Assembly: GCF_000148385.1 (NCBI RefSeq)
Contig: NC_014537.1
Span: 2,250,001 to 2,282,000, forward strand
DNA from: Vulcanisaeta distributa DSM 14429
GTDB taxonomy: Archaea > Thermoproteota > Thermoprotei > Thermoproteales > Thermocladiaceae
DNA: 32,000 nt
Reading direction: 5' to 3'
The translations under genes and the position numbers were made by a program. Below, one piece after another: positions 9,276-20,292 of this stretch (position 1 is the first letter of the stretch; every line of letters starts with the position of its first letter). The notes below the pieces were generated by a model. The model was not told the DNA's origin, made no database searches, and saw only the letters and a program-made list of their open reading frames with translations.

Positions 9276-9379
9276 CTTTTACTCGTTGCTGGTCAGGGCA
9301 TTGCACTATCGTTTTACTTATATGAAGCGGCGCCTAAATGAATTAATTTTAATAAGGTACTTAATAATCAATAATTAAT

Positions 9380-11383
9380 ATGGCGGAGAAGGTTAGGATT
9401 CTTTGGCAGCCTAATCAAGATGTAATTAGGAGTTCTAACATACTGAGGTTCGTTAATTGGCTTGATGAGGTTTTTGGTTTTGGGTTTGAGGTTTCGGTCG
9501 ATGATCCTCTGAGGAATGTGGGTAATTATGATAGACTTTGGAGGTGGAGTGTTGAGGATCTTGAGGGTTTTTGGGTGAGTGTTTGGCGTTACTTCGGTGT
9601 TGTGTCCCACTCGCCGTATACGAAGGTTCTTGAGCCAAGGACGATGCCGGGGGCTCGTTGGTTCATTGGTTCTAGGCTTAATTATGCGGAGCATGTGTTT
9701 AAGGCTGCCCGTTGGGGTGAGGAGGCTGTTGTGTATGTTAGGGAGGATGGGCTTAGGAGGAGCCTTACGTGGGATCAGTTGTATAGGGAGGTTGCGGCAT
9801 TGGCTGATTGGCTTAGGAGTGTCGGCGTTAATAGGGGTGATAGGGTTGCCGCATACGTTAGCCAGGTCCCGGAGGCTGTGGTTGCCCTATTGGCTACGGC
9901 GAGTATTGGGGCTATTTGGGTTGGTGTTGGTGCTGAATTGGCTCCGAGGGCTGCGATTGATAGATTCAACATGCTTCAACCCAAGGTGTTAATCGCGGTG
10001 GATGGCTATCCATACAGGGGTAAGGTCTTTGATAAGTACGGCGACATTAAGCAGATAGTCGACTCGGTGAAGAGTATTGAGAGGGTTGTGGTGGTACCAA
10101 ACATGAGGGATTCAGTGGAACTTAGCCTCGGTAAACCAGTCCATGACTGGAGGGAGGTCACAGGCAGGAGGGGCGTTGGGCTTTTCTTTGAACCCATGGA
10201 ATTCAACGAACCACTGTGGGTCCTATTCACGTCTGGGACCACGGGTATACCGAAGCCCGTGGTCCACAGCCACGGTGGTGTGCTCCTCGAGGCCTATAAG
10301 GTCGGTCTTCACATGGATTATAAACCAAGTGATAAGTTCACTTGGTACACGACACCGTCATGGATGATGTGGAACTTCACAGTCGATGCCCTACTCTTTG
10401 GCACAACAATACTATTCTATGATGGTGATCCAACAGCTAGGAATTTCGAACCCTACTGGGAGATCACGGAGAAGGAGGGCCTCACAATACTTGGCCTCAG
10501 CGCGCCCTATATTCATGCTGCCATGAAGTCCACGATAGAGCCCGGTAGGCAATTTAACCTAAAGACACTTAGGGAGATTGGCTCAACAGCGGCGCCGCTG
10601 TCGCCCCAGGGCTTTGAGTGGGTTTATGAGAAGGTTAAGGAGGACGTGTGGCTGGCGCCAATTAGTGGCGGTACGGACGTGGTCTCGGCATTCGTCGGAG
10701 GCTGCCCAATACTGCCTGTGTGGGAGGGTGAGATGCAGTGTAGGTGGTTGGGCGCGGCGGTTAATGTCTATAATGAGGAGGGTAAGCCCGTGGTTAATGA
10801 GGTGGGTGAGTTAGTAATTGAGAAGCCCATGCCCTCAATGCCCATTTACTTCTGGAATGACCCAGACTACAACTGGTACAGGGAGTCCTACTTCAGCATG
10901 TTCCCCGGCGTGTGGAGGCATGGTGATTGGGCGTTAATAACCGATAGGGGCACGGTAATAATAAGCGGGCGTTCAGACTCGACGATAAAGAGGAAGGGGA
11001 TTAGGATAGGCACCCTGGACATATACAAGGTCGTTGAGTCCCTGCCTGAGGTCGTGGGTAGCCTGGCCGTTGAGGTTAAGAATAAGTTAATACTATTCGT
11101 AGCCCTGAGACCCGGCCTGCAATTGACTGAGGAGTTGAAGAAGAAGATAAACGATGCACTAAGGAGTCAGCTGGGGCCTTATTACATTGCTGATTATATA
11201 ATACAGGTCCCAGACATACCAATGACTAGAAACTACAAGAAGCTTGAGGTCCCCATTAAGAAGGTTCTAATGGGCTGGCCGATCGATAAGGCCGTGAACA
11301 TAAACGCCGTGCTAAACCCAGAGGCTTTTTACGCGGTTATTGAGGCATTGAAGCCGTACATGGATGAGATAATGAAGGAGTGA
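9380..11383 (+). CDS. AMP-forming acyl-CoA synthetase, acetoacetyl-CoA/acetyl-CoA synthetase-like
   Basis: 667 aa. AMP-binding motif FTSGTTGIPKPVVHSHGG. The length and the N-terminal LW.P...F..W pattern fit acetoacetate-CoA ligase-type enzymes. Confidence 0.85.
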   Translation: MAEKVRILWQPNQDVIRSSNILRFVNWLDEVFGFGFEVSVDDPLRNVGNYDRLWRWSVEDLEGFWVSVWRYFGVVSHSPYTKVLEPRTMPGARWFIGSRLNYAEHVFKAARWGEEAVVYVREDGLRRSLTWDQLYREVAALADWLRSVGVNRGDRVAAYVSQVPEAVVALLATASIGAIWVGVGAELAPRAAIDRFNMLQPKVLIAVDGYPYRGKVFDKYGDIKQIVDSVKSIERVVVVPNMRDSVELSLGKPVHDWREVTGRRGVGLFFEPMEFNEPLWVLFTSGTTGIPKPVVHSHGGVLLEAYKVGLHMDYKPSDKFTWYTTPSWMMWNFTVDALLFGTTILFYDGDPTARNFEPYWEITEKEGLTILGLSAPYIHAAMKSTIEPGRQFNLKTLREIGSTAAPLSPQGFEWVYEKVKEDVWLAPISGGTDVVSAFVGGCPILPVWEGEMQCRWLGAAVNVYNEEGKPVVNEVGELVIEKPMPSMPIYFWNDPDYNWYRESYFSMFPGVWRHGDWALITDRGTVIISGRSDSTIKRKGIRIGTLDIYKVVESLPEVVGSLAVEVKNKLILFVALRPGLQLTEELKKKINDALRSQLGPYYIADYIIQVPDIPMTRNYKKLEVPIKKVLMGWPIDKAVNINAVLNPEAFYAVIEALKPYMDEIMKE

Positions 11384-12070: not shown

Positions 12071-13339
12071 ATGAGTATTGAGGGTGTGCTTAGGGAGGTT
12101 ATTGAGGAGTGGTTTGTTTTTAATCTGCCTAGGGTTATACCTAGGGATATTTCGTACTTATTACCTGAGGGTTCAGCCCTTGCGTTGGTCGGTCCTCGTA
12201 GAGCCGGTAAGACATATTTCATGTATTGGATCGCCCAAGACTTAATGAGTAAGGGTTGGCCTAGGTCAAGCATTATTTACATTAATTTCGAGGATGTTAG
12301 ATTAAGCGTTCTTAAGCCAACGGATTTCAGCATGTTTCTTAAGGTCATTAATGAGGAGGCGCGGGAGTACAATGGCAAGATATTGCTAATGCTTGATGAG
12401 GTTCAAAACCTACCGGAGTGGGGTCGCTGGGTGAGGACCCTGCTTGATAAGGGCAGGTACTTCGTGATACTCAGTGGTTCATCATCAAGGGTAAGGGCTA
12501 GTGATGTGGCTACGGAGTTGAGGGGTCGCTATATCGATAGGTTAGTGTTGCCATTTTCCTTCAGGGAGTTCCTAAGGGTCAGGGGTTTCGAGCAGGGATT
12601 TCTTGAGGTACCCGAGAGGCACGGTAAATTACTTAATCACTTGAGGGATTACGTACTTAATGGCTCCCTACCCGAGGTAGTGCTAAGGCCGGAAATGGCC
12701 AGTGACTTGGTTAGGACGTATAGGCAGACAATTATTTATAGGGACATAATCGAGAGGTACAGGATTAGGGATGCGGCGTTCTTTGAGACCTTCCTGGAGA
12801 TTGTTGAGAATAGTTTTGGAGGTTACGTCTCGGTGACGAAACTAAGCAATTACTTTAAGAGCTTAGGTATTAGCAAGAGCAAGAAGACACTGAGTAATTA
12901 CCTTAAGTACCTGGAGGAGTCGTACTACGTGGTACTCATTCGAAGGTTTGGGTTTTCAAGTAGGGAGGTCATTCAGCAGCCGAGGAAGGTGTACCCAATA
13001 GATACGGCATACTTCAGGAGGAAGTCCATTGAGCCAATGATGGAGAGCGTGGTTGCCGTGGAACTAATGAGGAGGGGACTTTCTTACAATTACCTGAGGA
13101 TAAATGATTACGAGGTTGATTTCGTAATAAATCAGGAGCCCAGGGAATACATCCAAGTCACCTACGCCTCGGCAATGGATGAAATCGATAGGAGGGAATT
13201 CAAAGCCTTAATCAGGGCCAATGAGGTGCTTGGGCGTGGGGTAGCTAGGGTAATTAGTTGGGACTTGGAGGATGAGATCGAGATCGAGGGAATCAAGGTC
13301 AAGGTAACGCCGCTCTGGAGGTGGTTACTCATGGGCTAA
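12071..13339 (+). CDS. AAA+ ATPase of the COG1373 type (AAA_14 N-terminal domain plus DUF4143-like C-terminal half)
   Basis: 422 aa. Walker A GPRRAGKT, Walker B LLMLDEVQ. The length and overall pattern match the widespread archaeal/bacterial predicted ATPase family. Confidence 0.8.
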   Translation: MSIEGVLREVIEEWFVFNLPRVIPRDISYLLPEGSALALVGPRRAGKTYFMYWIAQDLMSKGWPRSSIIYINFEDVRLSVLKPTDFSMFLKVINEEAREYNGKILLMLDEVQNLPEWGRWVRTLLDKGRYFVILSGSSSRVRASDVATELRGRYIDRLVLPFSFREFLRVRGFEQGFLEVPERHGKLLNHLRDYVLNGSLPEVVLRPEMASDLVRTYRQTIIYRDIIERYRIRDAAFFETFLEIVENSFGGYVSVTKLSNYFKSLGISKSKKTLSNYLKYLEESYYVVLIRRFGFSSREVIQQPRKVYPIDTAYFRRKSIEPMMESVVAVELMRRGLSYNYLRINDYEVDFVINQEPREYIQVTYASAMDEIDRREFKALIRANEVLGRGVARVISWDLEDEIEIEGIKVKVTPLWRWLLMG

Positions 13340-13374
13340 TGCTTAAAGCCCATGGCCGTAACGTTAAGTGGGCA

Positions 13375-13857
13375 ATGCAGGAATTAAGGTGTGGGGAAAG
13401 TAATGATGAGTTGTTGAGGGTGATGAAGGTCATTGAGGAGTTAAGCCCCTACTGGGAATTGATAGGGATTAAGGTTGAGGATGTGGGTAGGGACTGCGCC
13501 ATAGGCTTCGTGGAGGTGGGCAGGAAGCACCTACAGGTGCTAGGCACGGTACATGGCGGAGTCCACGCGGCGCTGGTCGACGCAATGGCCTGGGTAGCCA
13601 TAATAAGCCACTACTACCCAAGGTACGTAATCGCAGTAACCACAGACCTAACAGTGAAGTACCTAAAGCCAATAACCGAGGGAGTGCTCAGGGCAGTGGC
13701 AAGGATAACACACATCAAGGAACCAATGGCACTAATAACCGCAGAACTAAGGAACAAAAACAACGAATTAATAGGAACATCAACAATGACCTACTGGATA
13801 ACGCCCACAAGCAAGGCACTAAATGAAGTAATAAACGAATTAAGGAATATGGCATGA
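13375..13857 (+). CDS. hotdog-fold thioesterase, PaaI family
   Basis: GTVHGGVHAALVDAMAWVA is the PaaI-type motif. Start is uncertain: ATG 13339 overlaps the upstream stop (TAATG), while ATG 13375 lies about 30 nt after the TATA-like CTTAAAG. Confidence 0.75.
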   Translation: MQELRCGESNDELLRVMKVIEELSPYWELIGIKVEDVGRDCAIGFVEVGRKHLQVLGTVHGGVHAALVDAMAWVAIISHYYPRYVIAVTTDLTVKYLKPITEGVLRAVARITHIKEPMALITAELRNKNNELIGTSTMTYWITPTSKALNEVINELRNMA

Positions 13858-13880
13858 TAAGTTGGAAGAGTTTAGAAGCG

Positions 13881-13934
13881 TATTCCTTAAATCGTTCCGT
13901 GGCAAAATTTTGCCATGGCTCGAATTATTGGAAA
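13881..13934 (+). repeat. left copy of a perfect 54-bp inverted repeat (contains the 16-bp palindrome TGGCAAAATTTTGCCA at 13900-13915)
   Basis: Checked base by base: this is the exact reverse complement of 16769-16822. Confidence 0.95.
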
Positions 13935-13958
13935 TTATTCGTGGTTCGTGGGTGGTTT

Positions 13959-13969
13959 GTTTTTAATTT
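13959..13969 (+). promoter_or_regulatory. TATA box of the P-loop ATPase gene
   Basis: GTTTTTAATTT centred 28 nt upstream of ATG 13992, preceded by the 13-mer TTCGTGGTTCGTG (13938-13950). Confidence 0.5.
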
Positions 13970-13991
13970 TTGTGTTGGTGGTTTTCTCTTG

Positions 13992-15167
13992 ATGGTTGGT
14001 TTGAGTGTTGATTCGTTGGTTGGGTGGATTGGTGGTCGTGAGGTTGTGTTGGGTGGTTTTCGTACTAGGTTTAGGGATAGGGGGTTTGAGGTTGGGGCTT
14101 TGCTTGGTGATTTGTTTAGGTTTGAGCATGTTGGTGTGGTTTATGGGCCCCTGGGTGCTGGTAAGTCTACGTTTCTTAGGTTGTTTGTTGGTGGTGTTGA
14201 GGAGCTTGGTGGTGTTGCTGGTGTTTATATTAATTATGATGGTGGTATTGTTGACGTGCTTTACCGTGGGGTTGATGCCTTCGGTGTTAGGGATTCTGTG
14301 GTTAATGCTGTGCTTAATGTGGTGGCTTCCCCGTCTGGGACGTCCGTCGGTGTTTCGGTGGCTTTGGGCGTGATTGTTTCGTTGATGAGGAGACTCTTTG
14401 AGTTAGTTAGGGGTTGGGGTGTTGACCGTGTTGTCATTGTTCATGATGACCTGGATAGGTGGTTGGCTTCGAGGGGCCTGGGGAATGCCATTGAGGGTCT
14501 TGTGGGTCTGCTCTCGAATTTGTACGAGGGTGGTCCTGCGGGTGTTGAGAGGCCCTGGGGTGATAAGTACAGCGTCACCTACGTGGCGTTGAGTGATTAT
14601 ACTGCGGTGGAGGTGGTCAATAGGTATAGGGGTAAGGGCGGACTACGCGCAATGCTCATGTGGAACCTGCCCAAGGAACCATTCATGGACTTAATCCTTG
14701 AGTTGGCGGGGAGGCGGGACATCGATATTGAGTTGCTGTGGCAGTTACTCGGTGGTAACCCAAGGGCCCTATCACAGTTAGCCACCGCCTATGGCTGGGA
14801 CGTGGATGCCTGGCTTAGGGATGCCATTAACGAGGTTGTTGGGGTACTGAATGAGGAGAAGGAGAGGCTGGGCCTCGGTAGTGTTGGTGAGGTCTTGGAC
14901 ATCGTGATCAGGCGCGTTGGGCAGGACGTGGGTCCGGACAACCTAGTACTGGGCACGCCGCTTCACGTGGGGCCATTGTTGAGGAATAACATATTGATTG
15001 GCATGAGCTCGACGGCAATATCGCAACTACCGAGCGAGCCCTGGGTAGGGAGGCACTATGCGTATCAATTACCGACGTATTACTGGGTGGTCAGGGCGAT
15101 GGCAATTAGGGGTAAAGTGGACGTAAAACCAGGCGATGTTGTGAGTGTGATAAGGCAATCAATTTAA
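13992..15167 (+). CDS. P-loop NTPase of the archaeal ATPase (Arch_ATPase/STAND-like) type
   Basis: Walker A GPLGAGKST, Walker B VVIVHDDLD. The track ORF begins at 13854, but those 46 codons cover the repeat and the promoter, so ATG 13992 fits a leaderless start. Confidence 0.7.
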   Translation: MVGLSVDSLVGWIGGREVVLGGFRTRFRDRGFEVGALLGDLFRFEHVGVVYGPLGAGKSTFLRLFVGGVEELGGVAGVYINYDGGIVDVLYRGVDAFGVRDSVVNAVLNVVASPSGTSVGVSVALGVIVSLMRRLFELVRGWGVDRVVIVHDDLDRWLASRGLGNAIEGLVGLLSNLYEGGPAGVERPWGDKYSVTYVALSDYTAVEVVNRYRGKGGLRAMLMWNLPKEPFMDLILELAGRRDIDIELLWQLLGGNPRALSQLATAYGWDVDAWLRDAINEVVGVLNEEKERLGLGSVGEVLDIVIRRVGQDVGPDNLVLGTPLHVGPLLRNNILIGMSSTAISQLPSEPWVGRHYAYQLPTYYWVVRAMAIRGKVDVKPGDVVSVIRQSI

Positions 15168-15225
15168 TGATAAGACGTCCTCGGCAGGGAATGGCTCCCC
15201 TCAAGCAATCTTGGGATTTCGCCGT

Positions 15226-15243
15226 CGCCTAATTAATTAGGCG
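15226..15243. promoter_or_regulatory. perfect 18-bp palindrome upstream of the NTase-like operon
   Basis: CGCCTAATTAATTAGGCG, 20 nt upstream of the TATA-like element at 15263-15273. Confidence 0.45.
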
Positions 15244-15262
15244 TTAATTCATGGTTTTAGTG

Positions 15263-15273
15263 CTATTTTTAAG
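15263..15273 (+). promoter_or_regulatory. TATA-like box of the NTase-like operon
   Basis: CTATTTTTAAG centred 28 nt upstream of GTG 15296. Confidence 0.4.
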
Positions 15274-15295
15274 TTGTCTTATCCCTTATTTGTTT

Positions 15296-15811
15296 GTGGA
15301 GGTTCCTCGGGAGGTTTTGTTGGTGGTTTCGGTGCTTAGGAAGCTTGGCTTTAGGGTTTTTCTTATTGGTGCCAGGGCCCTGGCTTTTTATGGTATTGTT
15401 AGGGAGACGGGTGATTGGGATTTAACCATTGATAGGCCGTTCAGCGTTGAGGTTAGGGATGCGGTAACTAGGGAGTTGAGGGGTTTGGGTTTCTCCGTGC
15501 AGTGGCGTAGGTGGGGCTTCTACGTTGATGCCGGCGCCGTTCATGCTTACATTAACTGCATGCCCCTAACCCTGGATGAGGAATTCATCAGTAGGTCTAG
15601 GGCTTTGGGGGATGTCCTTATTCCATCGATTGAGGATTTAATAATCCTTAAGTTGATGAGTGGTGAGGATAAGGACGTGGAGGACGTTAAGAGACTGCTC
15701 AAGCTACCCAACCTTGACCTACCCTACCTGCTCCGGCGCTCACGCGATGCGGGTGTTGATAAGGATTTATTAAGGATTGCCAGGAAGATTGGCTTGAGGA
15801 TTGATGGTTAG
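15296..15811 (+). CDS. nucleotidyltransferase-fold protein (minimal NTase / AbiEii-DUF6036-like)
   Basis: FLIGARALAFYGIVRETGDWDLTI resembles hG[GS]x9-13DxD. IEDLIILKLMSGEDKDVEDVKRLL is typical of this family. The track start ATG 15251 adds an implausible hydrophobic leader, so GTG 15296 is preferred. Confidence 0.6.
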   Translation: MEVPREVLLVVSVLRKLGFRVFLIGARALAFYGIVRETGDWDLTIDRPFSVEVRDAVTRELRGLGFSVQWRRWGFYVDAGAVHAYINCMPLTLDEEFISRSRALGDVLIPSIEDLIILKLMSGEDKDVEDVKRLLKLPNLDLPYLLRRSRDAGVDKDLLRIARKIGLRIDG

Positions 15812-16295
15812 GGAGTTCGTGTTTAACGAGGGTTGCGTGGTCATTGATAATGTCAGGTTGCCCATTGACGTGGCCAGGGCATTGAGTAATTATGGTTGCT
15901 CCTTCACAGGCTGGACCGCCCTAGCCATACACGCGGGGAGCAAGTTGTTGATTCTATACCACCCGAATTACCTCGAGATCGCGTGCCCGGACATCGAGGC
16001 CGTGGTCAGCGGGCTCAGGAGGCTCGAACTAGTGATTTGGCGTGGGAGGCGCTGGGCCACGGTTGGTTGGGTCTACAGACCGCTCAGGGTGGCGCTCGGT
16101 GAATTGAGGATCTTCAGTGAGGAGGTTAGTAGCGAGGGTGAGAGGTGTGGGTTGGGCGTGGCCTCGATAATCGACGCCGCCAGGCACATAATGCGGTTTA
16201 GGGAGCGCGTGAGGGACCTCAGGCTTGTTGAGAGGTACTCAAACGGCAGGGTTAGAATACCCACGGGATTGATGACGGCAAAACACCATTTTTAA
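15804..16295 (+). CDS. hypothetical protein, apparent degenerate paralogue of the upstream NTase-fold protein
   Basis: ATG 15804 overlaps the upstream stop by 8 nt. The sequence is colinear by eye (ALSNYGCSFTGWTALAIHAG vs LRKLGFRVFLIGARALAFYG; RGRRW vs WRRWG), but the acidic DxD pair is absent. Confidence 0.5.
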   Translation: MVREFVFNEGCVVIDNVRLPIDVARALSNYGCSFTGWTALAIHAGSKLLILYHPNYLEIACPDIEAVVSGLRRLELVIWRGRRWATVGWVYRPLRVALGELRIFSEEVSSEGERCGLGVASIIDAARHIMRFRERVRDLRLVERYSNGRVRIPTGLMTAKHHF

Positions 16296-16316
16296 CGGGT
16301 GAAGCATCAATCCACA

Positions 16317-16580
16317 TCACTGGTCAAGACCACCCCTCAACTCCCTCAAGGCCTCAACAGCACCCCTGATATACTCCTCCTCCCTATCAGGAACCACAGC
16401 ACCATAAATAGTCAAAGTCCTCCACTGAGTCCTGGTAGCATACACATACTCAGCAGGACCCACATAACAACGAGAACCATCACCATGATAAAACCTGAAA
16501 TAAACCCTACCATTAGACCTAAACGAATGCACAGACCTAACAACCCTCCCACACCTCGGACAAATCAACACCTCACCCAT
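16317..16580 (-). CDS. small zinc-ribbon protein (CPRCG ... HGDGSRC)
   Basis: The TATA TTTATAAG (minus strand, 16603-16610) is centred 27 nt upstream of ATG 16580 (MGEVLICPRCG...). The track start 16601 would overlap that TATA. Confidence 0.55.
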   Translation of the reverse strand: MGEVLICPRCGRVVRSVHSFRSNGRVYFRFYHGDGSRCYVGPAEYVYATRTQWRTLTIYGAVVPDREEEYIRGAVEALRELRGGLDQ

Positions 16581-16602
16581 CAATAAACAAAACCCAACCA
16601 AA

Positions 16603-16610
16603 CTTATAAA
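16603..16610 (-). promoter_or_regulatory. TATA box of the Zn-ribbon gene
   Basis: TTTATAAG on the minus strand, 27 nt from ATG 16580. Confidence 0.45.
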
Positions 16611-16768
16611 TTACTTTCACCATTAATAATACCTATTATATTAATAAAAATTTCATAATATAACAAAACTACGGTAATTATACAACCAAACAAACATCAA
16701 ATACAGCAAACCACAACCACAAGACACATCACCCATTTTCCTTCACTAATTCGGCACATTATGACTAT

Positions 16769-16822
16769 TTTCCAATAATTCGAGCCATGGCAAAATTTTG
16801 CCACGGAACGATTTAAGGAATA
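16769..16822 (-). repeat. right copy (inverted) of the 54-bp repeat (16-bp palindrome at 16788-16803)
   Basis: Exact reverse complement of 13881-13934. The outward flank 16823-16842 still matches the reverse complement of 13861-13880 at 11/20, and 8 of the 9 mismatches are transitions. Confidence 0.95.
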
Positions 16823-16868
16823 TATTTTTAAATTCTTTTTATGGTTTGTCTTTCGTGGTTTGTGCGTT

Positions 16869-16879
16869 GTTTTTAAATT
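16869..16879 (+). promoter_or_regulatory. TATA box of the mannosidase gene
   Basis: GTTTTTAAATT, preceded by TTCGTGGTTTGTG (16852-16864), and centred about 28 nt upstream of GTG 16902. Confidence 0.45.
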
Positions 16880-16901
16880 GGTGTTTGTTATTTCGTTGTT
16901 G

Positions 16902-19829
16902 GTGTTTGTGGGTTTTGATTTGAGGGATGTTGGTGGTGTTAGGACTAAGTTGTTTTATCTTGAGGCTGCTTCCATAATGGGTGTTGATGCTGTTAATCTT
17001 GAGGCCTGTGGTGGTGCTCTCTGTGGTTCTGTTGTGGTTAGGGATTTTGGTGAGCCTTGGTTTTTTGTTGATGTTGTTGGTGAGGGTACTCTCAGGGTTG
17101 ATGATCTTCAGTTCGCTGTTTTTAATTACGGTGATGAGGGTGAGAGTAGGTGGGTTAGGGCTTCCCCAGGTAGGCATTCCCTATCGCTTGTTTTGTCCCC
17201 TGTTAGGATGTTTGGTGAGCGTAGGGTTAGTTTCAATGGTATGTACGTTGTTTATAGGGAGCCATCACTGTTCAGTTTTGTCCTTAGGGCTAAGCTCCTG
17301 CTTGATGTTGCCGAGGCCTTCGAGGACCTAAGGACTGACTACCTCAAGGTACTTAATGAGGCCCTTGACGCGGTTCCCCTGGACTCCGTGGCTAATTGGC
17401 AGTTGGAGTTCGCGGTTAGGGCTCATATTGTTGAGCCTCCAGGCTTTGTTAGGGCGTTGTTTAATTACTACGATGCCAAGGAGCTGACGCACCTGAGGCC
17501 GCCTGATTTCAGCGAGCTTGGTAGGGCTGCTAAGGAGGGTTTGAGGATCCTTGAGGAGGGTATTGAGGGGTTGAGGGTTAGGAGGGGTCATAGGGGCGTT
17601 GTTTATGTTGCTGGTCACGCGCACATAGACCTTGGCTGGCTTTGGAGTAGGGACGTGACCAGGGAGAAGGTTAGGAGGACAATCATCAACGTCCTATCGC
17701 TACTTCAGTCGTACCCGGAGCTCACATTCCTCGTGTCTAACATGGCGTACCTAAGGTGGCTTAGTGAGGATAGGGATTTGTGGGTTAGGGTTAGGGAGGC
17801 CGTTAAGGCCGGTAGGATAGTGCCCGTGGGCGGTATGTGGGTTGAGAGTGATGCTAACTTGCCCGGTGGTGAATCCCTGGTGAGGCAGTTCCTATACGGG
17901 CAGAGGTTCCTCCTCAGGGGGTTTGGCTTCACCACGGAGATTGGTTGGTTGCCCGACACCTTCGGATTCCCAGCATCACTACCACAAATACTAAGGAAGG
18001 CGGGGATTAGGGTGTTCTTTGAGCATAAGATGTATTGGAACACGGTCAATAGATTCCCATACTCCGTATTCCTTTGGGAGGGGATTGATGGCTCGGTGAT
18101 ACCCACAATAAACTATGCAACCTACGGCGCCGACTTAACGCCTAGGCAAATAGCCAGGGCCTGGTCAGACCACACAAGCCCCGAGCTACCGGCCTTCCTA
18201 CCCTTCGGTAAGGGTGATGGTGGTGGGGGACCGACATGGCTAATGCTCGAGAGGTACAGGGTGTATAGGGACTTGCCAGGTATGCCGAGGCTCATCATGG
18301 GTAATCTAAAGGACTTAATTAGTGAGGTTGTGAGGGACGACTCATTACCGAGGTGGAGGGGTGAGCTATACCTTGAGATTCACAGGGGGGTTTACACGAA
18401 TGGTATAAGGCTTAAGCAGTTGGTTAGGGCTCTCGAGACGAAGCTTAGGGAATTGGAGACCTTCAGTGTAATTGCCGGTGTAAGGAGGAGTTATGAGGAG
18501 CTTTGGTATCCACTACTCGAGGCTGAGTACCACGACCCAATGGGGGCTACGTCGACGAAGTCCGTATATGATGAGGTGGTCAATGAGCTCGAGGAGGACT
18601 TGAAGAGGGTTGATGGGGAGTTGATGAACGTGCTCAGGAAGACCCTTGGCACAGGCTGCTTCGTAACGATCGTTAACCCACTGCCCTGGGCCCGTAGGGA
18701 GTTGGTCATGGTTAGGGAGGAGCTGAGTGGTGTGGCAACGCAGAGGGTTGGCAATGGTTACCTGGCGCTCATTGAGGTCCCGGCCCTTGGCTGGAGGTCC
18801 TTCGAGAAGGGCCCAGGGAACTCCATGGGTGACGTAACCGTGGGTAGTAACTATGTCGAGAATTCCGTGGTTAGGGTTGTGTTTGATGGTTCGTTGAGGA
18901 TCTACGATAAGGAGGTTGGGAGGTGGGCCGTTGAGGACGGCTATTTAATGGCCTGTGAGGATATGCCGAGTCGATGGGATGGATGGGACATAGACGCTTA
19001 CTACAGGAGGGTTTGTAGGAGGTTGGAACCGACTGGGTTTAGCGTCGTGGAGGGTGGACCGTTGAGGGGTTGTATTGAGGTTAATTATAGGTTTAGGGAG
19101 TCGAGTATTAGGCAGAGGATTTGCGTGAATGCCTTCAGTAGGCGTGTTGATGTGGAGAATGAGGTTGACTGGAGGGAGAGGTTAACGCTTCTGAAGGCCG
19201 TTTATAAACTCGGCATATTCGGGCATAGCGCATCCTTTGAGGTACCCTACGGCGTGGTTAATAGGCCGACGAGGCCGAGCAATACCTGGGAGGTGGCTAA
19301 GTTTGAGGTACCCGCCCTGCGTTGGGTCGATGTTTGGGACCCAGACTACGGCGTCGCCATACTTAATGATGGTAGGCAGGGCTACTCAGTTGAGGAGAAT
19401 ACCGTGACAATAACACTACTCAGGTCACCCATTTACCCGAACCCATTCCTGGACTACGGCCATAACAAGTTCACCTACGCCATATACCCACACTCAGGTG
19501 ATTGGAGGACTGCCCAAGTGCCCAGGAGGGCTTATGAGTTCAATCAACCACTAATTATTGTTGAGGGTACGGCGGGCGGCGACTCATCATTCCTCGAGAT
19601 CACAAACCCAGCAATAATGCTCGAGGCCCTTAAGTGGGGTGAGGACTCGGGGATTGTACTAAGGCTTTACGAGACCTACGGAGTAAACACATGCACCGAG
19701 GTCAGGGGCTTCATCAAGGGTGAAGGCGTTGAGACCGACCTCCTCGAGCTAAACAATTACGGCAATGCGGACCTGGGCAACCTCTGCTTTAGGCCCTTCG
19801 AGATAAAGACAATACTAGTCAAGTCATGA
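16902..19829 (+). CDS. GH38-family alpha-mannosidase
   Basis: About 975-989 aa. The GH38 metal/catalytic motif VAGHAHIDLGWLW is present. Start is uncertain: the track gives TTG 16860, promoter spacing favours TTG/GTG at 16896-16902, and the first ATG is at 16977. Confidence 0.85.
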   Translation: MFVGFDLRDVGGVRTKLFYLEAASIMGVDAVNLEACGGALCGSVVVRDFGEPWFFVDVVGEGTLRVDDLQFAVFNYGDEGESRWVRASPGRHSLSLVLSPVRMFGERRVSFNGMYVVYREPSLFSFVLRAKLLLDVAEAFEDLRTDYLKVLNEALDAVPLDSVANWQLEFAVRAHIVEPPGFVRALFNYYDAKELTHLRPPDFSELGRAAKEGLRILEEGIEGLRVRRGHRGVVYVAGHAHIDLGWLWSRDVTREKVRRTIINVLSLLQSYPELTFLVSNMAYLRWLSEDRDLWVRVREAVKAGRIVPVGGMWVESDANLPGGESLVRQFLYGQRFLLRGFGFTTEIGWLPDTFGFPASLPQILRKAGIRVFFEHKMYWNTVNRFPYSVFLWEGIDGSVIPTINYATYGADLTPRQIARAWSDHTSPELPAFLPFGKGDGGGGPTWLMLERYRVYRDLPGMPRLIMGNLKDLISEVVRDDSLPRWRGELYLEIHRGVYTNGIRLKQLVRALETKLRELETFSVIAGVRRSYEELWYPLLEAEYHDPMGATSTKSVYDEVVNELEEDLKRVDGELMNVLRKTLGTGCFVTIVNPLPWARRELVMVREELSGVATQRVGNGYLALIEVPALGWRSFEKGPGNSMGDVTVGSNYVENSVVRVVFDGSLRIYDKEVGRWAVEDGYLMACEDMPSRWDGWDIDAYYRRVCRRLEPTGFSVVEGGPLRGCIEVNYRFRESSIRQRICVNAFSRRVDVENEVDWRERLTLLKAVYKLGIFGHSASFEVPYGVVNRPTRPSNTWEVAKFEVPALRWVDVWDPDYGVAILNDGRQGYSVEENTVTITLLRSPIYPNPFLDYGHNKFTYAIYPHSGDWRTAQVPRRAYEFNQPLIIVEGTAGGDSSFLEITNPAIMLEALKWGEDSGIVLRLYETYGVNTCTEVRGFIKGEGVETDLLELNNYGNADLGNLCFRPFEIKTILVKS

Positions 19830-20057
19830 CGTGGCCGGGCTGATGAATAGTACCGTGTCACCCCTAATAATCATTAAACCACCCTTAACACCGCCCTTCG
19901 GATTGACCTCCTCCGTATTCGTAAGCAGTAGGTTAAGGTGCTGGTCATAACCAACGAGGACGCCCCTAATCTCAGTACCGTTCCTAAGCTTCACTAGAAT
20001 CACCTTATTCAAACTCTTCTGCAGCTCCTCATTAACAATCTCCATACAGCGAGGCAT
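19824..20057 (-). CDS. Sm-like (LSm) archaeal protein
   Basis: 77 aa. Sm1/Sm2 motifs VILVKLRNGTEIRGVLVGYDQHLNLLL ... IIRGDTVLFIS. TATA CTTTAAAATA lies about 26 nt upstream of ATG 20057. Confidence 0.88.
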   Translation of the reverse strand: MPRCMEIVNEELQKSLNKVILVKLRNGTEIRGVLVGYDQHLNLLLTNTEEVNPKGGVKGGLMIIRGDTVLFISPATS

Positions 20058-20214: not shown

Positions 20215-20292
20215 TGGGGCCGGGGCCGGGATTTGAACCCGGGTTCACGGGCTCCACAGGCCCGCATGCTTTCCAGGCTGCACCACCCCGGC
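20215..20292 (-). tRNA. tRNA-His (GUG), intron-less, CCA encoded, discriminator C73, no encoded G-1
   Basis: Reverse complement: GCCGGGG TG GTGC AGCCTGGAAA GCAT G CGGGC CTGTGGA GCCCG TGAAC CCGGG TTCAAAT CCCGG CCCCGGC C CCA. Confidence 0.9.

What the first reader, a model, noticed from the sequence alone, without database searches (positions are those of the whole stretch)
13992..14460. Extreme promoter-proximal G+T (keto) skew on the sense strand that decays along genes
I hand-counted 60-nt sense-strand blocks. ATPase gene: 14001-14060 = 54/60 G+T, against 34/60 at 15101-15160. Mannosidase: 16901-16960 = 50/60, against 28/60 at 19741-19800. Acyl-CoA synthetase: 9461-9520 = 46/60. Minus-strand Zn-ribbon gene: 16521-16580 = 48/60 on its own sense strand. 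Both amino bases (A and C) are depleted. That is the signature expected if the displaced non-template strand suffers C->U and A->hypoxanthine deamination near promoters at high temperature. The C>T decay of the repeat flank at 16823-16842 points the same way. Alternatives are selection on the 5' ends of leaderless mRNAs or on R-loop-prone structures. The skew forces V/G/L/F/W/R-rich N-termini. It also produces the long spurious antisense ORFs rich in P/T/N/K/Q seen in the ORF track (for example 13935-14129, 16299-16586, 16839-17177, 9368-9694). It is not uniform: the S9 peptidase and the r-protein tails show much less of it.
Basis: partly seen in the sequence, partly recalled or inferred. Interest (0 to 1): 0.65.

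Follow-up and report, generated by a model that had tools for sequence, protein, structure and literature searches.

The report
Strand skew centred on palindromic site
The extreme G+T richness at the start of this archaeal gene is real, but it is one arm of a mirror-image composition pattern that spreads about 450 bases to both sides of a conserved palindromic recombination-type site, whichever way the neighbouring genes point, so it is not simply wear on the promoter-near end of each gene.

Summary
The window is Vulcanisaeta distributa DSM 14429. 13992-14460 is 78% G+T, against at most 62% in shuffles. The skew is strongest at four-fold degenerate sites: T 66%, G 24%, C 8%, A 2% in the skewed gene starts.

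The anchor is a palindrome, not each gene's promoter. The skew changes sign exactly at GGCAAAATTTTGCC (13901-13914 and 16789-16802). On each side, the strand running 5'->3' away from the site is T/G-rich for about 450 nt. This held in 23 of 24 arms at 12 independent sites, and not at chance copies in unrelated organisms.

Genes that end at a site show the mirror image: A 57%, T 5% at four-fold sites of their own sense strand. The gene's own transcription cannot produce that. Vulcanisaeta genes without a site show only a weak gradient (about 0.17).

The sites also bracket strain-variable gene cassettes, with hybrid and empty-site junctions typical of site-specific integration.

The mechanism is unresolved. 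I favour an outward polar process, such as divergent transcription with strand-asymmetric heat damage or repair. Selection on the flanks and nick-primed repair synthesis remain open. I found no prior description.

The parts
13901..13914 (.). Core of palindromic site 1, GGCAAAATTTTGCC (extended form CCGTGGCAAAATTTTGCCATGG). The strand skew changes sign here. Site type B|A.
13866..13940 (.). 75-nt arm of an inverted repeat that contains site 1. Its partner is 16763-16837 (91% complementary).
   Evidence: mismatches listed
13935..14552 (+). Right-hand skew domain of site 1. It holds a non-coding G+T tract, a TATA-like TTTTTAA (13960-13966) and the first ~560 nt of the ATPase_2 gene. It includes the reported 13992-14460 (78% G+T). 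Third codon positions are 93-100% G/T for the first 270 nt.
13500..13857 (-). Left-hand skew domain of site 1. The outward (minus) strand is T-rich, which makes it the antisense strand of the 3' end of the 4HBT thioesterase gene. Four-fold sites of the sense strand go from A 0.10/T 0.35 at the gene start to A 0.72/T 0.00 in the last 174 nt.
13992..15167 (+). Archaeal ATPase_2 (PF01637) gene, a strain-variable cassette gene. It is absent from the eight related loci and present at the same position in JCM 16161 (L015).
15211..15465 (+). G+T patch at the start of the DUF6036 nucleotidyltransferase gene. In L005 and L010 this gene lies directly after the palindromic site. In the window the ATPase gene lies between them.
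16419..16741 (-). Left-hand skew domain of site 2. It holds a non-coding G+T tract (about 16690-16741 on the minus strand) and the Zn-ribbon gene 16317-16601(-).
16789..16802 (.). Core of palindromic site 2, inside inverted-repeat arm 16763-16837. Site type A|B. The sign switch is 0.95 over +-250 nt, the largest in the window.
16838..17182 (+). Right-hand skew domain of site 2. It holds a G+T tract, a TATA-like TTTTTAAA (16872-16879), and the start of the GH38 alpha-mannosidase gene. The promoter module is similar to that of the ATPase gene (13938-13958 against 16852-16872, 86%).
9425..9980 (+). G+T patch at the start of the acetoacetyl/acetyl-CoA synthetase-type gene. It has no palindromic site and no mirrored arm, so it is a separate and unexplained case.

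Best explanation
SHOWN. The G+T-rich 5' end of the ATPase gene is the right arm of a two-fold symmetric composition domain. The domain is centred on a conserved intergenic palindrome, GGCAAAATTTTGCC with conserved arms of about 30 nt. On both sides, the strand that runs 5'->3' away from the site is enriched in T and to a lesser extent G, and depleted in A and C. The enrichment runs from about 50 nt to about 450 nt from the site. It appears in coding DNA (most strongly at synonymous sites), in non-coding DNA, and on either the sense or the antisense strand of the neighbouring gene. The same sites flank strain-variable gene cassettes. The junctions are hybrid sites (B|A and A|B), and an empty B|B site exists in another strain. 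This is the pattern left by site-specific integration with crossover inside the core.

INFERRED (about 0.8). Some polar process starts at the site and runs outward on both sides, and it treats the two strands differently.

MOST LIKELY MECHANISM (about 0.35 on its own). The A/T-rich arms carry outward-facing promoters, so both flanks are transcribed away from the site. Where a gene ends at the site, this transcription is antisense to it. The outward strand is then the displaced non-template strand. At about 85-90 C and acid pH it accumulates C->U, A->hypoxanthine and depurination. Depurination is read as T, which fits the observed T gain and A loss. The template strand is comparatively protected or repaired. 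Decay with distance would reflect the length of these transcripts or R-loops.
For: Anchoring. The sign switch sits at every copy of the palindrome in the window and in related Vulcanisaeta loci. Across 12 non-redundant sites, 23 of 24 arms are positive, with mean outward skew +0.32 over 50-300 nt and about 0 beyond 450 nt. For 174 arms around the same 18-mer in unrelated organisms the mean is 0.00 (p=3e-12). All switches of at least 0.7 lie on the site, and there is no opposite-sign switch of that size.

Independence from gene orientation. Gene tails that abut a site have four-fold keto skew -0.65 (A .57, T .05), n=9, against -0.01 for 79 other tails (p=1e-5). Gene heads that abut a site have +0.65, n=5, against +0.08 for 83 others (p=.0015). 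Pfam matches confirm the gene orientations (LysE, PEP synthase, citrate synthase, an ABC-type ATPase with 4Fe-4S domains, MarC). The 4HBT gene tail in the window shows the same pattern.

Not a family trait. A 50%-identical ATPase homologue is nearly unskewed, and homologues carry K/E/I/N where this protein has G/V/R.

Outward transcription. Genes that leave a site start about 80-130 nt from its core and have TATA-like boxes inside the repeated module. The first 50 nt of the arms are A/T-rich (A .32, T .33) with TATA-like runs, and the skew begins at about 50 nt. Vulcanisaeta genes without the site show a weak 5'->3' gradient.

Spectrum. At four-fold sites T rises .27->.66, A falls .18->.02, C falls .29->.08 and G stays flat. 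Between ACS orthologues the main synonymous differences are C->T 26, A->T 19 and A->G 19.

Recombination-site reading..
Against: No transcript data exist, so the outward promoters and antisense transcripts are conjecture. The G+T tracts begin upstream of the best TATA-like boxes of ATPase and GH38. The model needs antisense transcription to outweigh sense transcription at the 3' ends of housekeeping genes such as PEP synthase, carB and citrate synthase. Ribosomal-protein genes show little skew. Silent-site turnover in the strongest patches is not raised (F81 distances 0.08-0.25 against 0.42-0.65; two-state analysis roughly equal). A pure damage hot spot would predict saturation, although the counts are small. 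ACS has strong skew without any site. Skew strength differs widely between sites.
Confidence: 0.4

Rival explanations
1. Each gene's own transcription exposes its non-template (sense) strand near the promoter. C->U and A->hypoxanthine deamination at high temperature then produce a promoter-proximal G+T skew that decays along the gene.
For: The skew is greatest at four-fold sites and decays along genes. Differences between orthologues are mostly transitions toward G/T on the sense strand. Genes without the palindrome show a weak general gradient. The ACS gene start is skewed without any palindrome and shows faster silent-site change.
Against: Genes that end at the palindrome have the opposite skew on their own sense strand. 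The extreme values occur only next to the palindrome. Non-coding tracts upstream of the TATA-like boxes are skewed. At silent sites A is depleted more than C and G does not rise. Ribosomal-protein genes are weakly skewed. Without the site the gradient is only about 0.17.
Confidence: 0.12
2. Selection on the flanks of the site. The recombination or boundary function of the palindrome needs flanks whose single strands cannot self-pair. One candidate function is extrusion of the palindrome hairpin from single-stranded DNA, as with integron attC or IS200/IS605 ends. Another is insulation of neighbouring transcription units. A and C on the outward strand would then be weakly selected against over several hundred bases.
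For: The pattern is two-fold symmetric, independent of gene orientation and present in non-coding DNA. Silent-site turnover is not raised, and by a four-state distance it is 3-5 times lower. In the ATPase gene head, third positions are frozen at G/T while first and second positions keep changing. The single strand is predicted to fold back around the palindrome more than full shuffles do (z about -2).
Against: No function is known that needs +-450 nt. The flanks show no specific complementarity once each flank's composition is kept. Oligo-T terminator runs are under-represented, not enriched. The two-state rate analysis does not show clear constraint. Skew strength varies several-fold between sites.
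Confidence: 0.2
3. Nick-primed repair synthesis. The recombinase that uses the site, or another nuclease, often nicks both strands at the core. Repair synthesis then runs outward and replaces the outward strand for some hundreds of bases. G.T-type misinsertions (T opposite G, G opposite T) accumulate in the new strand.
For: The site behaves as a site-specific recombination site, with hybrid and empty junctions. The geometry fits: the outward strand is the one resynthesised. So do the two-sided symmetry, the independence from genes, and a decay on the scale of a repair patch. Transitions toward G/T dominate between orthologues.
Against: There is no evidence of nicking. Copying a damaged template would give the opposite sign, so the outcome rests on an assumed polymerase bias. 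T greatly exceeding G at silent sites, and frequent A->T changes, are not explained by G.T mispairs. No recombinase gene lies in the window. Break-and-resection versions predict the opposite polarity.
Confidence: 0.15
4. Shared ancestry. The G+T-rich stretches are the terminal sequences of one mobile element, copied from place to place.
For: The 75-nt arms, and about 50 nt of promoter module downstream of them, are homologous between the ATPase and GH38 sides. A palindrome plus a 65-nt G+T tract behaves as an insertion or deletion unit upstream of the Sm gene in L009 compared with the window.
Against: Beyond about 30-60 nt the arms are unrelated in sequence, with mirrored identity at the level composition alone predicts. 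They lie in unrelated, conserved host genes (GH38, 4HBT, PEP synthase, carB, citrate synthase, LysE), where the skew sits at synonymous sites. Empty sites have skewed flanks too.
Confidence: 0.03
5. Selection on the 5' ends of leaderless mRNAs, for low structure or a slow-codon translation ramp.
For: G/U-only RNA can form only weak G.U pairs. NNU codons need wobble decoding. The skew starts near the start codons of genes that leave a site.
Against: The skew extends 150-200 codons, not 10-50. It is mirrored at the 3' ends of genes that arrive at a site and is present in non-coding DNA. It is weak in most genes.
Confidence: 0.03
6. A replication-origin-like site, with bidirectional initiation at the palindrome giving leading-strand-type G+T excess.
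For: The sign switch has the polarity of an origin, minus to plus. The arm sequence CGAAACGAAAAA resembles part of archaeal ORB elements as I remember them. That resemblance is from memory and was not tested.
Against: The skew fades within about 450 nt and does not persist along a replichore. Sites occur every 1.3-2.9 kb in arrays. The window ORFs scanned against Pfam gave no Orc1/Cdc6 match.
Confidence: 0.03

Closest known systems
Transcription-associated strand asymmetry. From my own knowledge: excess G+T on the coding strand of mammalian genes, strongest near the 5' end; GC-skew peaks downstream of TSSs in plants and fungi; C->T excess on the non-transcribed strand in E. coli. Reviews were found (PMC3269016, PMC2927911, PMC10030826).
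   Same: It enriches the same bases (G and T on the strand that would be non-template for outward transcription). It decays over hundreds of bases from a start point. The sign changes at a divergent centre.
   Different: The magnitude is far larger here, up to 96% G/T at four-fold sites. The anchor is a specific palindrome and not promoters in general. The mirrored skew lies on the sense strand of genes that end at the site. T gain dominates and G does not rise. I found no report for archaea.
Skew switch at replication origins (GC/keto skew, Z-curve; PMC3269012, PMC4009838)
   Same: The sign switch has the same polarity, with the outward strand G+T-rich.
   Different: The effect is local (about 450 nt) and multi-copy, and it has no initiator gene or persistent replichore-scale skew.
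Repetitive extragenic palindromes (REP/BIME), reported as widespread in bacteria and archaea (PMC12306157)
   Same: It is a multi-copy intergenic palindrome, usually just downstream of stop codons and often between convergent genes.
   Different: That paper does not mention strand skew in the flanks, nor Vulcanisaeta. Here the sites also behave as cassette integration junctions. No RAYT-type transposase was seen.
Core sites of site-specific recombinases (dif/Xer with integrating elements, lox/FRT-type sites, integron attC/attI)
   Same: Inverted arms flank a short A/T spacer. Inserted DNA is bracketed by hybrid sites. The empty site equals the two outer halves. Sites occur in arrays with one to four genes between them.
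   Different: No recombinase has been identified. The spacer is symmetric. Cassettes lie in both orientations and carry their own promoters. As far as I know, none of the known systems has a flanking strand-composition domain.

Membership tests
Transcription-associated strand asymmetry | The skew lies on the non-template (sense) strand of the transcribed gene | tested here: not met
   Met for genes that leave the site. Genes that end at the site have the opposite skew on their sense strand: four-fold keto -0.65, n=9, p=1e-5, and the 4HBT tail has A .72/T 0.
Transcription-associated strand asymmetry | The skew starts at the transcription start site and scales with expression | not testable with these tools
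   No transcript maps or expression data are available. G+T tracts lie upstream of the TATA-like boxes. Ribosomal-protein genes are weakly skewed.
Transcription-associated strand asymmetry | It is a general property of genes, visible at neutral sites | tested here: inconclusive
   In Vulcanisaeta genes without the palindrome the gradient is weak: head +.12, tail -.05, n=38, p=.009. It is absent in 16 genes from other contigs. Pooled head minus rest is +.08, p=.04.
Replication origin | A skew switch that persists along the flanking replichores | tested here: not met
   The skew returns to about 0 by 450-500 nt.
Replication origin | Orc1/Cdc6 gene and ORB repeats with an A/T-rich unwinding element | tested here: not met
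   The 20 window ORFs scanned against Pfam gave no Orc1/Cdc6 match. The A/T centre is only 8 bp. ORB similarity was not formally tested.
REP-type extragenic palindromes | A multi-copy palindrome in intergenic DNA, typically at gene 3' ends | tested here: met
   There are two copies in the window, arrays in L019, L061 and L110, and about 30 Thermoproteales-like metagenome contigs carry it. Most sites lie 40-85 nt after a stop codon.
REP-type extragenic palindromes | An associated RAYT (IS200/IS605-like) transposase | not tested
   None appears among the window ORFs scanned. The genome as a whole was not available.
Site-specific recombination core site | Inverted binding arms around a short spacer | tested here: met
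   CCRTGGCA-AAATTT-TGCCAYGG, with conserved outer arms of types A and B.
Site-specific recombination core site | Inserted DNA is flanked by hybrid sites, and the empty site equals the outer halves | tested here: met
   In the window and L010 the sites are B|A ... A|B. The empty site in L008 is B|B, with the same outer arm sequences. L004 has an A|A site.
Site-specific recombination core site | A cognate recombinase and demonstrated recombination | not testable with these tools
   No integrase or transposase domain appears among the window ORFs scanned. Experiments are needed.
Integron | An IntI gene with attI, and co-oriented promoterless cassettes each ending in an attC | tested here: not met
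   No integrase is present. Cassettes lie in both orientations, hold one to four genes and have their own TATA-like boxes.
5' codon ramp / reduced mRNA structure at starts | Confined to about the first 10-50 codons of genes | tested here: not met
   It extends 150-200 codons. It is also present at gene 3' ends and in non-coding DNA.

The most novel reading that the evidence does not exclude
Vulcanisaeta and related hot-spring Thermoproteales carry a family of palindromic site-specific recombination sites. These sites serve as integration points for small gene cassettes (AAA+ ATPase_2, nucleotidyltransferase pair, Zn-ribbon, EVE-domain genes). They also organise a composition domain of about +-450 bp with mirror symmetry, in which the outward strand is driven to as much as 96% G+T at silent sites. 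That would be a previously undescribed local footprint of a polar DNA or RNA transaction in a hyperthermophile: recombinase- or nick-primed synthesis, divergent transcription with one-strand heat damage, or selection for single-strand behaviour.
Probability: 0.4. Interest if true: 0.8.

Novelty: new variant of a known kind. Interest (0 to 1): 0.7.

Why it matters
Strand-composition asymmetry is normally a small genome-scale signal, used to find origins or to infer transcription-linked mutation. Here a sub-kilobase signal of extreme size overrides codon choice. It visibly reshapes protein N- and C-termini in conserved genes, and it is tied to one short DNA site.

If the cause is mutational, it gives a natural, site-anchored read-out of which strand is exposed or repaired at about 90 C. 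It would also be a way to test whether Crenarchaeota have strand-specific repair. If the cause is selective, it points to an unknown requirement of an archaeal recombination or boundary element.

There are practical consequences. These domains generate long spurious antisense ORFs and can mislead gene callers, as happened with the Zn-ribbon gene. The sites also mark hot spots of gene-content variation between strains.

Tried and rejected
1. Protein-level explanation. Rejected because the skew is strongest at four-fold sites.

2. Family trait of the ATPase. Rejected by homologues and by DNA of a 50%-identical homologue.

3. Replication-scale skew. ACS and GH38 lie on the same strand 0.8 kb apart, yet they shift in opposite directions between lineages.

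4. Double-strand break at the palindrome, 5'->3' resection and damage to the 3' tail. The geometry predicts the opposite polarity (my reasoning, noted).

5. Fail-safe oligo-T terminators on the outward strand. Runs of five or more T are fewer than composition predicts, 10 against 15.7 and 7 against 18.0.

6. Relic of a long inverted repeat, or a selected extended hairpin. Beyond 30 nt, mirrored identity equals what composition predicts. Folding against flank-preserving shuffles is inconsistent, with z from -3.7 to +1.5.

7. Known RNA family. Rfam found only a tRNA at 20218-20292.

8. Known defence system. PADLOC gave no hit for the window cassette proteins.

9. Viral origin of the site. There was no match in IMG/VR.

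10. Rate test. I first read the F81 distances as proof that the patches are not hot spots. A two-state analysis showed the test is under-powered, because G/T<->A/C differences saturate at very low values. I therefore use it only as 'no evidence of raised turnover'.

11. Singleton polarisation in metagenome variants gave balanced flux, 173:159. That is expected under both mutation and selection.

12. Outgroup polarisation of ATPase substitutions with a 58%-identical outgroup is confounded by composition, so I did not rely on it.

13. Paralogue-based sampling of more of the V. distributa genome failed, because the search returned no usable V. distributa paralogues.

14. The second palindrome, CGCCTAATTAATTAGGCG upstream of the nucleotidyltransferase gene, is unique and not a family.

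15. Literature. Six searches found no description of the motif or of such a skew.
Full report
SOURCE AND GENES. The window is Vulcanisaeta distributa DSM 14429, or a near-identical strain. The ATPase protein it encodes is on record on a contig of 2,374,137 bp, which is the published genome size (PMC3035369). GH38 orthologues of 76-94% identity come from eight other Vulcanisaeta genomes.

The genes around the finding are as follows:
- an AMP-forming acyl-CoA synthetase, ACS (9380-11383+)
- an AAA_14/DUF4143 ATPase (12071-13339+)
- a 4HBT thioesterase (13321-13857+)
- an archaeal ATPase_2 (13992-15167+; an independent gene call confirms the start)
- a DUF6036 nucleotidyltransferase (15251-15811+)
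- a 164-aa ORF (15801-16295+)
- a Zn-ribbon protein (16317-16601-)
- a GH38 alpha-mannosidase (16860-19829+)

13992-14460 is 78.0% G+T. The window mean is 51.3%, and the largest value for a window of that size in 200 shuffles is 62.3%. The skew decays along the ATPase, GH38 and ACS genes.

It is a nucleotide-level effect. Four-fold degenerate sites in the first 300 nt have keto skew 0.82-0.93, against 0.05-0.31 in the rest of the same genes. Pooled over the skewed gene starts, four-fold sites are A .02, C .08, G .24, T .66, against A .18, C .29, G .26, T .27 further along. So T gains, A almost vanishes, C drops and G does not change.

The pressure reaches amino acids. Homologues of the ATPase have K/E/I/N where this protein has G/V/R. 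A 50%-identical homologue is almost unskewed at the DNA level. The skew is therefore not inherited with a gene family.

THE ANCHOR IS A PALINDROME. A 75-nt inverted repeat (13866-13940 and 16763-16837, 91% complementary) brackets the four genes from the ATPase to the Zn-ribbon. Each arm is centred on the perfect palindrome GGCAAAATTTTGCC.

In the window and in every related locus that holds the motif, the plus-strand keto skew flips at the motif. It goes from about -0.3 to -0.6 on the left to +0.5 to +0.7 on the right, and decays over about 500 nt. All sign switches of at least 0.7 (+-250 nt) in roughly 200 kb of Vulcanisaeta-like sequence lie on the motif. No opposite-sign switch of that size exists.

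To the left of 13901 lies the 3' end of the co-oriented 4HBT gene. Its four-fold sites run from A .10/T .35 at the gene start to A .72/T .00 in the last 174 nt. This is the mirror image of the ATPase gene start, but on the antisense strand. Non-coding G+T tracts also lie between the palindrome and the TATA-like boxes.

INDEPENDENT SITES. About 30 have 45-50% G+C and carry the same extended palindrome with conserved arms. Only one is orthologous to the window. The remainder are chance matches in unrelated organisms and serve as a control.

Over 12 non-redundant sites (24 arms), the strand running away from the site has mean keto skew +0.32 between 50 and 300 nt. It is positive in 23 of 24 arms and falls to about 0 by 450-500 nt. 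The 174 control arms average 0.00 (p=3e-12).

In 88 genes from nine non-redundant loci:
- Tails that abut a site have four-fold keto skew -0.65 (A .57, C .26, G .12, T .05; n=9), against -0.01 for 79 other tails (p=1e-5).
- Heads that abut a site have +0.65 (n=5), against +0.08 for 83 others (p=.0015).

The arriving genes are ordinary housekeeping genes, and Pfam confirms their orientation: LysE, PEP synthase, citrate synthase, an ABC-type ATPase with 4Fe-4S domains, and MarC. After correcting for the usual sense-strand baseline, the shift is about the same on sense and antisense arms: T about +.11, A -.085, C -.07, G +.04.

HOW GENERAL IS A PROMOTER-PROXIMAL GRADIENT? Without the palindrome the gradient is small. 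In Vulcanisaeta genes, four-fold keto skew is +.12 in the head, +.03 in the middle and -.05 in the tail (n=38, head against tail p=.009). It is absent in 16 genes of the other contigs. A 21-kb sample of Pyrobaculum islandicum showed little. In the window alone, genes without a site average +0.23 (10 of 14 positive, p=.009). ACS is the one strong case without a site and remains unexplained.

WHAT THE SITE IS. Gene content between 4HBT and GH38 differs between strains. There is nothing in L008, L009 and L095. There are three genes in L005 and L010, and four in the window and L015. L004 has a GH15 gene after the site.

The outward arms come in two types, A (ATGGCTCG...) and B (ACGGAACG...). Occupied loci have B|A at one end and A|B at the other. 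The empty site in L008 is B|B, built from the same outer arm sequences. L004 has an A|A site. This is the junction pattern of site-specific integration with crossover inside the core.

In L019, sites lie 1.3-2.1 kb apart. The first two bracket an ATPase_2 gene with a winged-helix C-terminus, a second such gene lies just upstream of the first site, and the next interval holds an EVE-domain gene, a Zn-ribbon homologue (59% identical) and a LysE gene. Most sites lie 40-85 nt after a stop codon, often between convergent genes. No recombinase gene appears among the window ORFs scanned. There was no viral match, no PADLOC hit for the window cassette and no Rfam family at the site. Empty sites have skewed flanks too, so cassettes do not import the skew.

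MUTATION OR SELECTION? A four-state (F81) distance at four-fold sites is 3-5 times lower in the GH38 and ATPase heads than further along the genes. In the ATPase head, third positions differ less (0.09) than first positions (0.15).

However, G/T<->A/C differences saturate at very low values when 90-96% of sites are G/T. A two-state analysis gives about equal relaxation in head and body, from only a handful of differences. I therefore conclude only that turnover shows no sign of being raised. A pure damage hot spot, weak selection and one-strand protection all remain possible. Singleton changes among metagenome variants are balanced, 173:159, as every equilibrium model predicts. The ACS head evolves faster than its body.

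MECHANISM. Any explanation must give outward polarity on both sides of a two-fold symmetric site, regardless of gene direction.
- Break-and-resection models predict the wrong sign.
- Oligo-T fail-safe terminators are not enriched.
- There is no extended inverted repeat and no specific flank complementarity. The segregated composition alone does make the single strand fold back around the palindrome more than full shuffles do (z about -2).
- An origin-like reading fits the sign but not the 450-nt decay or the arrays.

Three models remain:
(i) Outward transcription from both A/T-rich arms, with the displaced outward strand taking heat damage and the template strand protected. The damage would be deamination plus depurination read as T, which fits the T gain and A loss.
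(ii) Repair synthesis primed from recombinase or nuclease nicks, with G.T-type misinsertion.
(iii) Weak selection on flank composition for the site's own function.

I favour (i) at about 0.35. My reasons are that genes leaving a site start about 80-130 nt from its core with TATA-like boxes in the repeated module, that the skew begins about 50 nt out just after an A/T-rich stretch, and that a weak transcription-oriented gradient exists elsewhere. No transcript evidence is available.

COMPARISON WITH WHAT IS KNOWN. The closest known phenomena are transcription-associated strand asymmetry and origin skew switches. The closest known elements are REP-type palindromes and recombinase core sites. None of these, to my knowledge or in six literature searches, combines a short palindrome with a local mirror-symmetric composition domain of this strength.

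VERDICT. The structure behind it is a new variant of strand asymmetry and is worth following up.

Noticed in passing
window 13866-16837 (sites at 13901-13914 and 16789-16802); L005, L008, L010, L015, L004, L019: The palindromic sites bracket a strain-variable 2.8-kb cassette holding ATPase_2, a DUF6036 nucleotidyltransferase, a 164-aa ORF and a Zn-ribbon gene. The junctions are hybrid (B|A and A|B), another strain has an empty B|B site, and L004 has an A|A site. This is the pattern of site-specific integration. No recombinase gene lies in the window.
   Followed up: partly
window 13938-13985 and 16852-16900: The promoter regions of the ATPase and GH38 genes are similar in direct orientation (TTCGTGGTT.GTG...TGTTTTTAA). 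Two unrelated genes therefore share a duplicated promoter module next to the site.
   Followed up: partly
window 9380-11383, and L006 7197-9197 and 10001-12961: Between V. distributa and Vulcanisaeta sp. AZ3, the whole ACS gene shifts by about -0.3 in keto skew and the whole GH38 gene by about +0.2. Both lie on the same strand 0.8 kb apart. No site or replication argument explains these gene-wide, lineage-specific shifts.
   Followed up: partly
window 15226-15243: A perfect 18-bp palindrome, CGCCTAATTAATTAGGCG, sits 8 nt upstream of the nucleotidyltransferase start codon. It is unique in the window and in all fetched loci apart from the same strain's own contig.
   Followed up: yes
window 19824-20057(-) and 20218-20292(-); L009 13125-13270: An Sm-like protein gene overlaps the 3' end of GH38 by 6 nt, and a tRNA gene follows it. 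In L009 the Sm gene has a 65-nt almost pure G+T tract plus a palindromic site upstream. The window lacks both, as if that roughly 85-nt unit were inserted or deleted as a block.
   Followed up: partly
L019 2235-3344 and 3548-4675: Tandem ATPase_2 genes with an MCM-type winged-helix C-terminus lie on either side of the first palindromic site, and the second gene is bracketed by two sites. These proteins are candidates for binding the site.
   Followed up: no
L095 1733-3064(-): A 443-aa ORF downstream of GH38 in a metagenome orthologue of this locus has an N-terminus that looks to me like a TnpB/IS605 OrfB-type protein. This is by eye only. I did not scan it.
   Followed up: no
window 16299-16586(+) against 16317-16601(-); also 9368-9694(-) and 16839-17177(-): The skew creates long stop-free antisense ORFs. 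A longest-ORF gene caller picked the wrong strand for the Zn-ribbon gene, and a codon model and public gene calls corrected it.
   Followed up: yes
L005, L008, L009, L010, L012, L015 (JCM draft genomes): Many genes in these drafts are broken into two to four collinear fragments, for example ACS, S9 peptidase and hydantoinase. I took these to be frameshift-type assembly errors. Codon-based comparisons with them need DNA-level alignment.
   Followed up: partly
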